The notes beneath the pieces were generated by a model. It did no database searches and was not told where the DNA came from. It saw nothing but the letters and a program-made list of their open reading frames with translations. DNA of 63,445 nucleotides, counting the filler, from Octopus bimaculoides (lineage: Eukaryota), in the NCBI RefSeq assembly GCF_001194135.2. It is 6 parts of 6 records of this genome, joined end to end, with 100 filler letters (N's around TTAATTAATTAA, not from the genome) between each part and the next. Parts side by side here need not be neighbours in the genome. Positions count along the whole stretch, not along the records: positions 1 to 25,198 come from NC_068982.1; positions 25,299 to 28,406 come from NC_068987.1; positions 28,507 to 35,437 come from NC_068995.1; positions 35,538 to 58,958 come from NC_068981.1; positions 59,059 to 61,124 come from NW_026295690.1; 1 more part is not named here. One strand, written 5' to 3'. Of the stretch, positions 15,976-60,028 are shown piece after piece (within the stretch, counting starts at the first letter, position 1; each line of letters starts with the position of its first letter). A program made the translations under genes and the position numbers.

Positions 15976-16430
15976 ATATCAGAACGTGCGTCATGTCTTT
16001 GTACATATGTATATATTATGTATGTATGCATATTTTTATATATGCATATGTATATGTGTGTGTGTGTGTGTAGCGAACTGGTAGAATGAATATTTATCAC
16101 CGGAAATGTGAATAAACAATTCTTTTTGATAGATTTTTTGTTGCTCTGCTGGTACTAAAGCTTTTGAATTGACAGAGATTGGCATTTTCCATCTGGAATT
16201 CAAAATATCAATGACATTATTAGACCAAATAACTATGACAGTACGCCAGTGGTGAAGTGTCATTGGCATTTTAAATTCTGGTTGAATAGATAACGATCAG
16301 TACCAGCAGGAAACACGTGGTATCAGAAATGTAACACAAATTATATATATACAATTGTTAAAGAGGACAACAGATGTTAAGGTAAGACAAACATCTCAAG
16401 TCATATATGTTATTATTATTGGAAAAATTC

Positions 16431-16492
16431 AAAGTCTTACAGCTGTTTCTGGGATATCCCATAGTATGGGATATTCCGTCATCGGAAACATT
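16431..16492 (-). ncRNA. Type-I hammerhead ribozyme relic
   Basis: aatgttt-CCGATGA-cggaatatccca/tacta/tgggatatccca-GAAA-cagctg-TA-agacttt; one core substitution (U4C). Confidence 0.65.
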
Positions 16493-16742
16493 CTCTTACG
16501 GAACGTCGATACGTTCGCGTTTATTTCTGGATATTTACACTATTAAGACTTTAACCTACATGGATTTACACAAGAGTGTACCCAAGGACTTATGGACTAA
16601 CATCTACACGATCGGAAGTTGAACTGTGAACTTTTATGCCGCTCATTTGTTCTCTTTCTTCTTTTTCTTCATCTCCTTATTTCTTTTCTCCTGTCCTCTA
16701 TGTCATCGTTTCATTAATCTATACCCTTTTAATTTTCCCTGT

Positions 16743-16803
16743 TTGTCTCTGATAACGGAATATCCCATACTCTTGGATATCTCAGAAACAGCTGCAAAAC
16801 ATT
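16743..16803 (+). ncRNA. Type-I hammerhead ribozyme relic
   Basis: ttgtct-CTGATAA-cggaatatccca/tactc/ttggatatctca-GAAA-cagctg-CA-aaacatt; G8A and cleavage-site substitutions. Confidence 0.6.
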
Positions 16804-17113
16804 GAATTTTTCCGATAATAATAACAGATATGACTTGAGATGTTTCTCTTGCCTTAACGTTTGTTGTCCTCTTTGAAATTTATATATCCGGTATATCAGA
16901 AATCTACAAGAGTTCCATAACTTCCGTTTCGGCTATTACCTTGGAGCCCTGGTAATCTGTTATAGCACTTACCCAGCGTACCTAGTCGTTTAGATCACCT
17001 GTGAACTAAACACCCATATTTTGTGTGTGTATATATATATATATATATATATATATATATATATACTTTACTCAGGGACTAGTAGACTTGACACCGTTCA
17101 GTAATCGGTGTGC

Positions 17114-17161
17114 ATTCAAAGCAATGATTTGTAGCATTACGAAACCGGTATGCTTTTGAAT
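17114..17161 (+). ncRNA. Compact hammerhead-like relic with palindromic stem III (ACCGGT)
   Basis: attcaaagca-ATGATTT-gta/gcat/tac-GAAA-ccgg-TA-tgcttttgaat. All stems are in register; 3 of 7 core positions deviate. Confidence 0.45.
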
Positions 17162-19227
17162 CTCTTTAACGATTCACAATAATGACTTTTATTACTTTTA
17201 TTCCTACCTCAGTTCATCTAATTTTATATATCTNNNNNNNNNNNNNNNNNNNNNNNNNNNNNNNNNNNNNNNNNNNNNNNNNNNNNNNNNNNNNNNNNNN
17301 NNNNNNNNNNNNNNNNNNNNNNNNNNNNNNNNNNNNNNNNNNNNNNNNNNNNNNNNNNNNNNNNNNNNNNNNNNNNNNNNNNNNNNNNNNNNNNNNNNNN
17401 NNNNNNNNNNNNNNNNNNNNNNNNNNNNNNNNNNNNNNNNNNNNNNNNNNNNNNNNNNNNNNNNNNNNNNNNNNNNNNNNNNNNNNNNNNNNNNNNNNNN
17501 NNNNNNNNNNNNNNNNNNNNNNNNNNNNNNNNNNNNNNNNNNNNNNNNNNNNNNNNNNNNNNNNNNNNNNNNNNNNNNNNNNNNNNNNNNNNNNNNNNNN
17601 NNNNNNNNNNNNNNNNNNNNNNNNNNNNNNNNNNNNNNNNNNNNNNNNNNNNNNNNNNNNNNNNNNNNNNNNNNNNNNNNNNNNNNNNNNNNNNNNNNNN
17701 NNNNNNNNNNNNNNNNNNNNNNNAGAGAGAGAGAGAGAGAGAGAGAGAGAGAGAGAAAGAGAAAAAATACAGGTATTTTAATTACCATAGAATACAAGAC
17801 ATTGCCTGGTTCCAATCAATAAGCTTTTCCTTTTCGTTTATGGCATGTCAACTCTGGTGAATACTTGATTCTTGGAATTATCTCCCTTACTTCATTGCCA
17901 TATGGTAAATATGACACATCCTCCAGAGGCGGAAATTATTCTAATCAATCACAAATTTATGTTGTATGATATCTTGATGCGTAGAAAACTGCTTCACGAT
18001 AACCAATTTTCAGATTTTTTACTTCCTTTTAAAAAATGCAGATATTGTGAATGAATATGACAAATTTTCAGATTTTTTTACGTCATTTTAAAAATGGGCT
18101 GATTTTATTGACTCAAACTAACTAGATCCAAGTACAGTGAATACCATCTTCCACAATTTGCTACTCATATGAAATTTATATATATATTTCTATCAAATAC
18201 ACTCTTTCTTGAGCATAAAAAATCCTCTTCTCGAGTGACAATAACTTATATGTTAGATTGTTGCACAAGTTCTAGCTGTTTTGATAAGGGAAATCGGAAA
18301 GGTTTGAAATGATTTCACCGAGCACTCATTCGGTAGCCAACACATTGATCTCATAAGTGTCACGCGGTGGAAGTAAACGCAACTACCAAACTTTCAATTC
18401 ATTATTTCGTTTTTTGTTTTTGCATTTCAATTTGTACATCTGTACTCCTGACTGCATACAAGTGCATATCTAAAACGACGTCCTTTATTTTTTTATCATT
18501 ATCTGCTGATATCAAAATAAGTAGTATGTTGAAAAATAAAAATATTTTCTAGGAGGGGGGGGGGTGCATTTGTGACTCCAAGAGTTAAAAGGGGGCCTTT
18601 GGCCAAAATGGGTTGAGAACCTTTGGTGTAGGGCGGAAAACAGAAAAAGATCGGCGAGAGAAATAAACGAGTGAGGGATTATTAGCCAGCTGGGAATACG
18701 GTTATTTGGGTAGAAGTTAAGGATGGAGAAGGGGTAGGTTTGTGCGTGCAAGTTTAGTTGTGCTTAGAGATGGACATATGAGGCGAGTGGTATATGATTT
18801 TTTTAATGGAGTTTGTGTATATGTGTAGCAGTGTGCAAGTGAAGAAGTATAACAGCATCGATTAGGAGTATATGAGACATTGGTGTATGGTTTGTAATTG
18901 ATATGTGTGTGTGAGGAGAGTGAGGAGGTGAGAAAGGCAAGAGGATTGTGGAGGGTGTGATAAAAGTGAGTGGAAGGTACAGGGGCCAGACGTTGTTACA
19001 TGCAAGTAAGTAATGAATAAGAGAAGCAAAAGAAAGAAGCTCGGGTTCAGGAAGAGAAAAAAATAAGAGAAAAAGCAGAAAAAAATCACAATAAAAAACC
19101 TAGGTGTGAATGAGAGTGAGAGAGTGAGTGAGTAAGTGAAAGAGAACTTACTTCGGTGAAAAGACTGAGTTGGTTACGTAAAACACACGCACACAACTCA
19201 CACACACACACACACACACACACACAC

Positions 19228-19457
19228 GGCGGCGAGCTGGCAGAAACGTTAGCACGCCGGGCGAAATGCTTAGCGGTATTTCGTCTGCCGCTACGTTCTG
19301 AGTTCAAATTCCGCCGAGGTCGACTTTGCCTTTCATCCTTTCGGGGTCGATTAAATAAGTACCAGTTACGCACTGGGGTCGGTATAATCGACTTAATCCG
19401 TTTGTCTGTCCTTGTTTGTCCCCTCTGTGTGTAGCCCCTTGTGGGTAGTAAAGAAAT
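19228..19457 (+). mobile_element. Young family A SINE variant with an L1/Tx1-like 3' tail, inserted in (CA)n
   Basis: All CpGs intact; the distinct tail TCCCCTCTGTGTGTAGCCCCTTGTGGGTAGTAAAGAAA resembles 34552-34590. Confidence 0.85.
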
Positions 19458-58311: not shown

Positions 58312-58770
58312 AATATTCCTATGAACCAAATGATATGAAAATGATTCTTCAAATGAAGATATTTTATTTTCTTGTATTTAGAGAAGGTATTTGATTTGTT
58401 TAATTGATTCTCTGATATAGTTGTTGTTTAGCTACAAATCAATACTGATCAAACAGACCTTTGATCAAAATCATCCAGCTTTTACCAACTTTTCTTGAGG
58501 TATACAGTACCCCAAACGACATTATTTGTCCTTTGATATATTTTTTAACAGTAGTAGGCTGTAATTTAAGGGAGATATGGTCGCTATATCTAGCAGGTTG
58601 AATGAACATACAGAGGCTCACTCATTGTCTCAAAATTCCCTTACTGGTGTTGGTGTGAGTTCTCTGTTGGCTTGTCTTGTTTGAGATATGGATATTAAAG
58701 TTGGAAGGTGTTTATAAGTCATTTAAAAACATACAAAAACCGTTAGATTCCCTTCAACATTTAAATTTAA

Positions 58771-58820
58771 TTTGCCAAAATATTTTCATCGTTTTGAGAC
58801 AACGACCTGTTCACTGACAA
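58771..58820 (-). ncRNA. Hammerhead-shaped motif with a deviant core
   Basis: tttgtca-GTGAACAG-gtcgtt/gtctca/aacgat-GAAA-atat-TT-tggcaaa; stems I and II and palindromic AATATT are in register. Confidence 0.4.
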
Positions 58821-58915
58821 AATTTTCACACATGTTTTTGCCATAACAGGTTCAGTGGATCTAATGGTTTACTATTTCTGTTATTGTAATTGATCATTTC
58901 TTCAAACTCTCTTAC

Positions 58916-59084
58916 TAGAAATTTTAGTTGGCTTATCTCCATCCAAGCTAACATTAGCNNNNNNNNNNNNNNNNNNNNNNNNNNNNNNNNNNNNNNNNNN
59001 NNTTAATTAATTAANNNNNNNNNNNNNNNNNNNNNNNNNNNNNNNNNNNNNNNNNNNNGCATTGTCAACAGTTTTCATATTTTT
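58916..59084 (-). other. Candidate exon interrupted by a 100-bp placeholder gap (KNMKTVDNANVSLDGDKPTKIS if contigs overlap by GC)
   Basis: GACAG acceptor, CTA|GTAAGA donor; the frame closes exactly with a 2-nt overlap. Confidence 0.28.
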
Positions 59085-59135
59085 CTGTCAACATTACATA
59101 TTTCAGTATTATTATTATTATGATTATTATTATTT

Positions 59136-59690
59136 AGTGAGAGAGTAGTGCATGCCATCAAAGTGACACTGGGGTAAAATATACGAAGCCCATTATACCC
59201 ATCATGACTACCCGTCTGATAAGGGCACACCAGGCACATGCATCAGAACTATATGTGCGCGACATGGTGATCTCATATCAAGATAAACAGCGCATGACCT
59301 CGCAGGTGGGGCCCAGTTAGAATTTTCTTCAGGTAGAGTAGCTCATCCCACTCAAAAGGTCCCTGAATAAGGTTTGTTTAAGGATGTTGAGCAAAACACC
59401 CATGTTTCCAAAGGTGAATTATCCAAACACCAAAGAATTCCCCTCAGCACATGGCTACGATTCTCCTCCACTACTTCTGCTCACGATCAGAGATGCACAT
59501 ATCGTCAGCCACCAAGGGACATGCTCAACTGGTTAAGGTCAAACAACTGACAAGCAAATCTGTGGTATTGAGCAGAATATTTGCTGTAGCCCATCTTTTA
59601 TACCAAGACAAAACAATGTACATGATAACACTTCCAATCAATTAAGATCAGAAGCCATGAGAGCCACTGCCTGGTACTGCATTAGGGCAT
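59136..59690. mobile_element. ~555-bp non-coding interspersed element embedded in (ATT)n
   Basis: Complex, relatively GC-balanced block sharply bounded by (TTA)n on both sides; no ORF and no TIR. Confidence 0.5.
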
Positions 59691-59831
59691 TTATTATTGT
59701 TATTATTATTATTATCATCATTATTATTAATTATTATCATTATTATTATTATTATTATTATTATTATTATTATTATTATTATTATTATTATTAGTTTATG
59801 TAGGACTGAAGTAACTCAACAGAAGTTTTTA

Positions 59832-60028
59832 TAGATATAGAGAGTAGAGTTCTTTACTGGTATACGATTGACACAATCCATCACTAAGGTAAACATAGCT
59901 GACGTAATCCATCACCAAGGCAAACTTAATGACGAAAAGCGCGACTCGAAAGTAAGTTATTTATTTATTTTTTTAGTGATGGATTGTGTCAATCGTATTC
60001 AAGTAAAGAACTCTTCTCTCTATATCTA
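59832..60028. repeat. ~200-bp foldback with 56-bp inverted arms
   Basis: TAGATATAGAGAGTAGAGTTCTTTACTGGTATACGATTGACACAATCCATCACTAA versus its near-perfect reverse complement at 59973-60028. Confidence 0.85.

What the first reader, a model, noticed from the sequence alone, without database searches (positions are those of the whole stretch)
16353..60028. Synthesis: a recurring class of non-coding, tail-out, hammerhead-bearing foldbacks
Sequence-unrelated elements at 16353, 54287 and possibly 59832, plus isolated motifs at 17114 and 58771, share the grammar core-stem II-GAAA-palindrome-UH. The palindromes are CAGCTG, CAGCTG, ACCGGT and AATATT. An autonomous-type Penelope with inverted ends lies in the same window. 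Inference: several non-autonomous Penelope-derived families (retrozyme-like, but fixed as inverted dimers) populate this genome. Their transcripts could self-cleave and form long dsRNA inside host introns. I cannot tell whether these families are already catalogued.
Basis: inference. Interest (0 to 1): 0.75.

Follow-up and report, generated by a model that had tools for sequence, protein, structure and literature searches.

The report
Penelope retroelement ends with variant hammerheads
The five motifs are worn pieces of five different repeat families, three traced to the tail ends of protein-coding Penelope-type jumping genes, each family carrying a hammerhead-shaped RNA that is predicted to cut itself; the mirror-image arms occur in only some copies and are likely a known by-product of insertion, and the one unusual point is that two families carry a swapped base pair in the ribozyme core.

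Summary
The motifs are real, but they are not one class of fixed inverted dimers. They belong to five dispersed families (A 16353, B 54287, C 59832, D 17114, E 58771). Each family carries a type I hammerhead motif with a palindromic stem III. A, B and D are not non-coding families: longer copies run into Penelope-like (PLE) endonuclease or RT frames (Hydra-type for A and B, Neptune/Nematis-type for D). Only C (253-nt head-to-tail unit) and E (about 215 nt) look ORF-less. A tail-out partner was found in 58 of 162 loci, with variable breakpoints, the family's 3' tail on one arm only (45 of 56) and about 12-bp target duplications in E. This is the published PLE insertion layout. Folding a whole foldback abolishes the hammerhead stems. 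The window's own Penelope is a sixth family. The least ordinary point is the core 3-8 pair: G3-C8 in E (961 exact copies) and A3-U8 in D, with a G3-C8 subfamily. I found only U3-A8 in print as natural, but could not read one key paper. Cleavage is untested. The scan noted the same layout on other pieces of this genome, and purine-3 cores in another genome.

The parts
16345..16490 (-). Family A, short inverted arm without tail. Carries the family-type hammerhead: core CCGATGA (U4C) at 16485-16479, long stem II, GAAA-CAGCTG-TA at 16449-16438. The 5' strand of stem I comes from the inversion junction.
16490..17022 (+). Family A, long arm: 5'-truncated 3' end of a Hydra-type PLE with a decayed hammerhead (16749-16796) and the family tail of about 140 nt (about 16885-17022), ending in (TG)n(TA)n
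17067..17233 (+). Family D: 5'-truncated 3' end of a Neptune/Nematis-type PLE. Hammerhead at about 17119-17158 (family core ATGATTA, A3-U8; this copy ATGATTT). Runs into an assembly gap.
26080..28406 (-). A sixth family: broken RT and GIY-YIG-like PLE frames with a 129-nt inverted terminal copy at 28239-28367 that carries the tail. Shares no 3' end with A-E.
54285..54462 (-). Family B, left arm: canonical core CTGAAGA at 54437-54431, stem II of about 58 nt, GAAA-CAGCTG-TG (G17 in this copy; family TA)
54459..54585 (+). Family B, right inverted arm: begins 29 nt before GAAA and so lacks the 5' core. GAAACAGCTGTA at 54488. Runs into an assembly gap.
58702..58826 (-). Family E, single tail-less copy of a unit of about 215 nt with no ORF seen. 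Hammerhead at 58821-58771 with core GTGAACA (G3-C8), an extra G, 7-bp stem I and GAAA-ATAT-TT.
59795..60028 (.). Family C foldback in (ATT)n: long arm 59795-59966 (minus, with 38-nt tail) and a short inverted arm. Both start downstream of the family's hammerhead-like motif (core CTGT[G/T]GA plus A), so this copy has none.

Best explanation
The five motifs are decayed, 5'-truncated copies of five separate repeat families whose 3' ends carry a type I hammerhead motif; three families (A, B, D) are the tail ends of protein-coding Penelope-like retroelements, two (C, E) are likely short ORF-less passengers of such elements, and the foldbacks are likely made one at a time during insertion. Inferred mechanism: the PLE GIY-YIG endonuclease nicks both strands of an AT-rich or microsatellite target about 12 bp apart. 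Each nick primes reverse transcription from one of two start sites at the RNA 3' end, with or without the tail. The two cDNAs stop at different points and are joined at their 5' ends. This gives a long arm and a shorter inverted arm, tails outward, with one tail only. The hammerhead would act in ordinary sense transcripts, probably as a dimer through the palindromic stem III, and not in the foldback. In D and E the tertiary 3-8 pair is swapped to A-U or G-C while staying paired, which suggests selection for an active core. Shown: family structure, coding links, geometry, TSDs in E, core sequences. Inferred: the insertion steps, non-autonomy of C and E, and cleavage.
For: Multi-copy dispersed families. 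A: copies L126 and L127 run collinearly from an EN-like frame with CxCX5C and CxxC to the hammerhead. 4 of 10 long loci carry the A 3' region downstream on the same strand and 7 of 10 carry an inverted A end upstream; RT-like motifs are seen in L154 and L161. B: EN-like frame with CxCX5C, YVG, CxxC and CxH, collinear with the B hammerhead end in 2 of 5 fetched loci. The A and B ENs are 39% identical, E=9e-19. D: L129 holds RT (RVT_1, E=2.7e-7) and GIY-YIG (E=5.3e-5), both above Pfam cut-off, ending about 215 nt before the hammerhead. Geometry: tail-out partner in A 13 of 40, B 15 of 35, C 7 of 24, D 2 of 20, E 21 of 43 loci, with different breakpoints; tail on one arm only in 45 of 56 scorable pairs; bimodal 3' ends in A, B, C and E. 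Direct repeats of at least 10 nt outside microsatellites flank 9 of 52 two-armed insertions (six are 12 nt; 7 are in E), against 6 of 734 mismatched controls. The relaxed descriptor hits A 11 of 30, B 9 of 23, C 6 of 24, D 12 of 20 and E 24 of 25 loci, with 0 hits in one shuffle of the same sequences. 3-8 pair: E is G-C in 47 of 47 cores, with 961 exact genomic copies and control 0. D pattern, 86 copies: 73 A-U, 7 G-C, 1 G-U, 5 unpaired, 0 C-G. The same layout is in print: PMC8557442, PMC3846280, PMC4209133, PMC11167929.
Against: No intact full-length parent was found for A or B. Their EN pieces score below Pfam's cut-off (E=0.55 and 0.0015) and the A RT piece was not recognised, so the Hydra label rests on motifs, not on a tree. 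No coding parent was searched for exhaustively for C and E. A (U4C) and C (A6U) deviate at core positions with no compensation, so their motifs may be weak or dead. The D G3-C8 subfamily is one event, not seven. The descriptor was fitted after seeing the motifs. Stem I of the isolated A and B arms folds poorly (pair probability below 0.01 and 0.21). Most flanks are microsatellites, where TSDs cannot be read. Inverted fractions for A-C are inflated because the foldbacks were the queries.
Confidence: 0.87

Rival explanations
1. One reading: a class of non-autonomous elements that propagate as fixed inverted dimers, whose transcripts self-cleave and form long dsRNA.
For: Three foldbacks in the window. 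58 of 162 loci have a tail-out partner. Whole foldbacks fold into stable hairpins (-223 and -166 kcal/mol). C and E appear ORF-less.
Against: Most loci have one arm. No shared breakpoint among A, B or C pairs. Only 6 inverted pairs among the first 100 listed of 961 exact E motifs (a lower bound, since both arms must match exactly). A, B and D lead into coding frames. The hairpin removes the hammerhead stems, and the second motif is antisense on any one transcript.
Confidence: 0.04
2. C and E are non-LTR retrozymes that amplify through circular RNA, and A, B and D are unrelated PLE stumps.
For: C shows head-to-tail partial tandems with a period of 249-257 nt in 7 of 24 loci. E has clustered 5' ends and a length of about 215 nt. 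A 2026 preprint treats retrozymes as non-autonomous PLE derivatives.
Against: No locus with two consecutive complete hammerhead-bearing units of C was seen, which is that preprint's criterion for an active retrozyme. E copies are not circularly permuted. Both carry PLE-type tails and inverted arms. This is largely the same explanation under another name.
Confidence: 0.25
3. The foldbacks are MITEs of DNA transposons and the hammerhead look is chance in AT-rich DNA.
For: Inverted ends, (TA)n targets, and a bare half-motif near background in the window. Near-constant 12-bp duplications in E.
Against: Arms vary in length and are usually absent. One arm carries a tail. Three families are collinear with RT/GIY-YIG frames. 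The full descriptor recurs in all five families with 3-8 covariation.
Confidence: 0.02

Closest known systems
Insertions of endonuclease-bearing Penelope-like elements with inverted pLTR and tail (Arkhipova et al. 2013, PMC3846280; Craig et al. 2021, PMC8557442; passages read)
   Same: 5'-truncated copy plus an inverted 5'-truncated copy at its 5' end, a tail at one end only, short TSDs (8-10 bp there), microsatellite targets, hammerhead in the terminal repeat.
   Different: Tails here are 38 nt (C), about 60 (E) and about 140-150 (A, B), against 30-40 bp in print. TSDs in E are 12-15 nt. Most copies are stumps with no coding sequence.
Hydra-clade PLEs, including Hydra-1_Obim (PMC8557442 section 11 and Files S1, S2)
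   Same: A and B ENs have CxCX5C, CxxC and a CxH-like motif, insert in (TA)n, and have a 3' hammerhead with ACAG..CTGT-type stem III as in Penelope-1_NV and Hydra-1_Amil.
   Different: The listed Hydra-1_Obim hammerhead differs from those of A and B, so they are other families. All listed Hydra-clade cores are C3-G8. A has U4C and a Thr/Asn-rich insert before the EN. B has a 3' UTR of over 2 kb and a stem II of about 58 nt.
Minimal type I hammerheads of metazoan PLEs (Cervera and de la Pena 2014, PMC4209133; parts 1-2 of 4 read, supplement searched in part)
   Same: Short palindromic stem III, an extra base after position 9 (C, E), many sequence families per genome, mostly single motifs. That paper already reports pairs 100-700 bp apart on opposite strands.
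   Different: The natural 3-8 swap reported there and in Perreault et al. 2011 (PMC3088659 section 8) is U3-A8. Here it is A3-U8 and G3-C8. G3-C8 appears in the papers read only as an engineered partial rescue (PMC11167929; PMC3884650).
Metazoan non-LTR retrozymes (bioRxiv 10.64898/2026.07.22.740005, parts 1-2 of 5 read; PMC7229834, search listing only)
   Same: C and E are short, ORF-less in the copies seen, with a type I hammerhead. C has head-to-tail repeats.
   Different: No array of two or more complete units was seen and no circular RNA was shown. A, B and D are ends of coding elements.

Membership tests
EN+ Penelope-like element (families A, B, D) | RT plus C-terminal GIY-YIG endonuclease collinear with the terminal sequence | tested here: met
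   D: both domains above Pfam cut-off. A and B: EN-like frames collinear with the hammerhead end and RT-like motifs in related loci, but below Pfam cut-off.
EN+ Penelope-like element (all five) | Sporadic inverted 5'-truncated copy at the 5' end, with variable breakpoint | tested here: met
   58 of 162 loci; breakpoints differ.
EN+ Penelope-like element (all five) | Optional 3' tail, usually on one end only | tested here: met
   45 of 56 scorable pairs in A, B, C and E; D not scorable because the reference was cut short.
EN+ Penelope-like element (all five) | Short target-site duplication | tested here: inconclusive
   Met in E (7 of 21 pairs, 12-15 nt). Unreadable in the microsatellite flanks of A-C.
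Hydra clade (A, B) | CxCX5C linker, CxxC and CxH around the conserved E and N | tested here: met
   CxH is CKH in L126 and CIH in L213; it is mutated in L153.
Hydra clade (A, B) | RT phylogeny, RWK and DKT motifs | not tested
   No full RT was recovered and no tree was built.
Type I minimal hammerhead | Core with paired positions 3-8, GAAA, UH, stems I and II, palindromic stem III | tested here: met
   Met at family level. B is canonical. D and E have a swapped 3-8 pair. A (U4C) and C (A6U) deviate at one conserved base. Only 2 of the window's copies pass.
Type I minimal hammerhead | Self-cleavage | not testable with these tools
   Needs an in vitro assay.
Non-LTR retrozyme (C, E) | No ORF | tested here: inconclusive
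   No shared 5' extension into coding sequence in 24 C and 43 E loci; not a full census.
Non-LTR retrozyme (C, E) | Tandem arrays of two or more complete hammerhead-bearing units | tested here: not met
   C shows only partial tandems (7 of 24 loci). E shows one direct repeat separated by (TA)n. The assembly has gaps at repeats.
Non-LTR retrozyme (C, E) | Circular RNA | not testable with these tools
   Only contigs of runs not on record as RNA were offered.
MITE | Both termini are fixed inverted repeats in most copies | tested here: not met

The most novel reading that the evidence does not exclude
PLE-linked hammerheads in this genome use natural purine-3 cores (G3-C8 in at least 961 copies of an ORF-less family of about 215 nt; A3-U8 switching to G3-C8 within one coding family) that are catalytically active and invisible to CUGANGA-based scans, so animal hammerhead counts are underestimated. 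Family E's two-armed insertions with 12-bp duplications would also be a clean genomic record of PLE priming on both strands.
Probability: 0.45. Interest if true: 0.5.

Novelty: new variant of a known kind. Interest (0 to 1): 0.33.

Why it matters
The foldback class as proposed is ordinary PLE debris and matters mainly for repeat annotation in this genome (probably an octopus), where such stumps could be filed as MITEs or unknowns. The core variants matter a little more. The C3-G8 pair is central to the hammerhead's active structure, and natural A3-U8 and G3-C8 versions in high-copy families would show that the pair, not the bases, is under selection in PLEs. PLE hammerhead function is still unexplained (PMC11167929 found cleavage dispensable for insertion in vitro). 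Family E offers hundreds of short insertions for testing how PLEs make inverted copies.

Tried and rejected
Rfam scan: no hammerhead among the 150 rows shown of 265; microsatellite-driven miRNA hits were ignored. Generic repeat finder: swamped by microsatellites and N runs. tblastn of the window's PLE frames against the first 85 loci: no hit. The first descriptor run omitted 6-nt palindromes and was redone. Window PLE as the parent of A-E: rejected; it has 67-69% nucleotide identity to D in the ORF only and a different 3' end, and its one descriptor hit in 20 loci is an A-like motif outside the aligned end. Expression: no RNA holder listed; laying contigs of four runs on an E copy listed no joints in the three guessed-RNA runs and cannot show ends or circles, so this is no evidence either way. 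Look-up of earlier scan notes by the E sequence found nothing. Literature on natural G3-C8 or A3-U8: searches found no report. Lunse et al. 2017 (RNA Biol, PLE hammerhead variants) was not held and one supplement file of PMC4209133 could not be searched, so either may already list these cores. Dfam and Repbase could not be searched. Position in host introns was not tested. Dropped rows: duplicate loci (L038, L039, L042, L045, L046, L051, L059, L072, L107) were left out of the counts; searches also left out L123, which is the same site as L185; one search used only L185-L209 for E.
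Full report
Setting. The window is a pack of six stretches from a 2.34-Gb genome. It is rich in (TA)n and (ATT)n. I take it to be an octopus from its repeats and from earlier scan notes; that is inference. The five cited places fall in three stretches on contigs C2, C1 and C833, so lying in one window means little.

Observation. The three foldbacks and the four palindromes are there. By itself the grammar GAAA-palindrome-UH is weak: 18 against 10.8 expected for 4-nt palindromes and 6 against 3.3 for 6-nt ones. 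No canonical hammerhead survives in the window (0, shuffle mean 0.03). A relaxed descriptor, fitted after seeing the motifs, gives 4 hits against 0.41; two are the A left arm and E, and two look like chance. Rfam shows no hammerhead among the 150 rows printed of 265.

Families. Each motif is one copy of a dispersed family. The first looks gave 1864, 545, 216, 884 and 900-2421 candidates for A, B, C, D and E, with 40 scored each; these are not copy numbers. Aligned copies give a type I hammerhead motif for each family. A has a 4-bp stem I, core CCGATGA and an 11-bp stem II. C has core CTGT[G/T]GA plus an extra A, with a 1-bp stem III. D has a 6-bp stem I and core ATGATTA. E has a 7-bp stem I and core GTGAACA plus an extra G. 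The descriptor hits A 11 of 30, B 9 of 23, C 6 of 24, D 12 of 20 and E 24 of 25 loci, and nothing in one shuffle of the same sequences. The window's C copy starts downstream of the motif and has none.

Not non-coding. Walking 5' through longer copies, A reaches an endonuclease-like frame with CxCX5C and CxxC about 1 kb upstream of the hammerhead, preceded by a Thr/Asn-rich stretch and a thumb-like region. Of 10 long loci found with that region, 4 carry the A 3' region downstream on the same strand, 7 carry an inverted A end upstream, and two show RT-like motifs. B has over 2 kb of AT-rich non-coding sequence and then a similar endonuclease-like frame, collinear with the B hammerhead end in 2 of 5 fetched loci. 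The two frames are 39% identical and carry the motifs that PMC8557442 section 11 gives for the Hydra clade. Pfam scores them below cut-off and misses the A RT piece. D leads into RT and GIY-YIG frames above Pfam cut-off with a CX4CxxC linker, the Neptune/Nematis type; no tree was built. C instead loops back on itself: 7 of 24 loci have partial head-to-tail repeats of 249-257 nt. E copies start about 15-25 nt upstream of the core and end about 190 nt downstream of stem I. C and E are the only candidates for non-autonomous families.

Not fixed dimers. A tail-out partner was found in A 13 of 40, B 15 of 35, C 7 of 24, D 2 of 20 and E 21 of 43 loci. The figures for A-C are inflated because the foldbacks were the queries. 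In a position-ordered list, 6 inverted pairs appear among the first 100 of 961 exact E motifs, which is a lower bound. Breakpoints differ from copy to copy. 3' ends are bimodal in A, B, C and E, and the longer end (the tail) sits on one arm only in 45 of 56 scorable pairs; one complex B locus also held a tail-in pair. Direct repeats of at least 10 nt outside microsatellites flank 9 of 52 two-armed insertions, against 6 of 734 mismatched controls; 7 are in E and measure 12-15 nt, while the B and C cases are low in complexity. This is the layout described for PLE insertions: an inverted 5'-truncated copy, a one-sided tail, a short TSD and microsatellite targets (PMC8557442 passages; PMC3846280 passages). 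Opposite-strand hammerhead pairs 100-700 bp apart were reported in 2014 (PMC4209133). A purified PLE protein cuts and extends both strands and starts at two sites that bound the tail (PMC11167929 passages). From this I infer that each foldback arises at insertion by priming on both nicks. PMC3846280 offers self-priming on an antisense template as an alternative, and my data do not separate the two.

The RNA claim. A transcript through the whole A or B foldback folds into one long hairpin in which the hammerhead stems have pair probability 0.0. In the isolated arm stem II forms but stem I is weak. The second motif is antisense, so it cannot supply a dimer partner in cis. Long dsRNA is plausible if a copy is read through; self-cleavage of that same RNA is not. 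Intronic position was not tested, and RNA data were not usable.

The window's Penelope. The element at 26080-28406 has broken RT and GIY-YIG-like frames and a 129-nt inverted end that carries the tail. It is 67-69% identical to D in the ORF only, and its own 3' end matches none of A-E and has no descriptor hit. It shows the same insertion geometry but is not the parent.

What is least ordinary. Positions 3 and 8 of the core stay Watson-Crick paired while the bases change: C-G in A, B and C, A-U in D, G-C in E. E has G-C in 47 of 47 cores read and 961 exact genomic copies (control 0). A D pattern with both positions free gave 86 copies: 73 A-U, 7 G-C, 1 G-U, 5 unpaired and no C-G. The G-C copies share a stem II loop variant, so this is one compensated double change. 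In the papers I read, the natural swap is U3-A8 (PMC3088659 section 8; PMC4209133), and G3-C8 appears only as an engineered partial rescue. All Hydra-clade hammerheads in File S2 of PMC8557442 are C3-G8, including Hydra-1_Obim, whose motif differs from A and B. Six searches found no report of natural purine-3 cores. Lunse et al. 2017 was not available and one supplement file of PMC4209133 was not searchable. The scan has an unreviewed note of the same swap in another genome, which I saw after finding it here; it is not independent proof. A and C carry uncompensated core changes (U4C, A6U) that may weaken them.

Papers seen. PMC4209133: parts 1-2 of 4 and supplement passages. PMC8557442: passages, section 11, supplement part 2 and hits. 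bioRxiv 10.64898/2026.07.22.740005: parts 1-2 of 5. PMC3088659: passages and section 8. PMC11167929, PMC3846280, PMC3884650, PMC6765202: passages. PMC7229834 and PMC8495972: search listing only. Lunse et al. 2017: citation only.

Verdict. The proposed new class dissolves into known PLE biology: truncated ends of coding elements (A, B, D), two likely non-autonomous derivatives (C, E), and sporadic inverted arms. What remains is a modest variant, natural A3-U8 and G3-C8 hammerhead cores in high-copy families, untested for cleavage. Interest 0.33.

Noticed in passing
L114, L201, L203, L209 (family E 5' end): Four E copies extend about 25 nt further 5' with a sequence that looks like a 3' splice site (branch-point-like ACTAAC, pyrimidine tract, AG). 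Most other copies start at or just after that AG. PMC4209133 notes an intron end next to helix I in the Drosophila Penelope.
   Followed up: partly
window 26080-26400 (minus); L230-L249: The 3' end of the window's Penelope has several hammerhead-like fragments (TGACGAAAC, CTGATTA, GAAAACCGGTT) that do not fit the type I descriptor. It may be a permuted or decayed ribozyme.
   Followed up: no
window 10450-10631: A further 182-nt foldback (84% self-complementary) with no hammerhead half-motif; it may be a MITE.
   Followed up: no
window 38068-40247: Broken non-LTR RT frames on the minus strand (RVT_1) with a 146-nt inverted copy at 38200-38345 versus 40105-40247.
   Followed up: no
L127 oriented 4085-5057: A Neptune-type RT N-terminal piece lies directly upstream of the family A thumb region; a chimera or nested insertion of two PLE clades.
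   Followed up: no
L126, L127, L152-L159: Family A's coding region holds a long Thr/Asn-rich microsatellite-like stretch, in frame in several copies, between thumb and endonuclease. It recalls the Asn-rich inserts in rotifer Penelopes (PMC3846280).
   Followed up: partly
window 12019-12396, 48053-48935, 62076-62239: 100% identical duplications on both sides of short N gaps, probably assembly overlaps.
   Followed up: no
window 5130-6950, 11762-13777, 15766-15979, 19225-19399, 37442-37697, 42736-43113, 58099-58317, 60163-60608: Many copies of a dispersed SINE-like repeat of about 220-280 nt, often next to (ATT)n.
   Followed up: no
L158 oriented 1-2355: An uninterrupted frame of at least 785 aa next to a family A copy, unrelated to the element; probably a host gene.
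   Followed up: no
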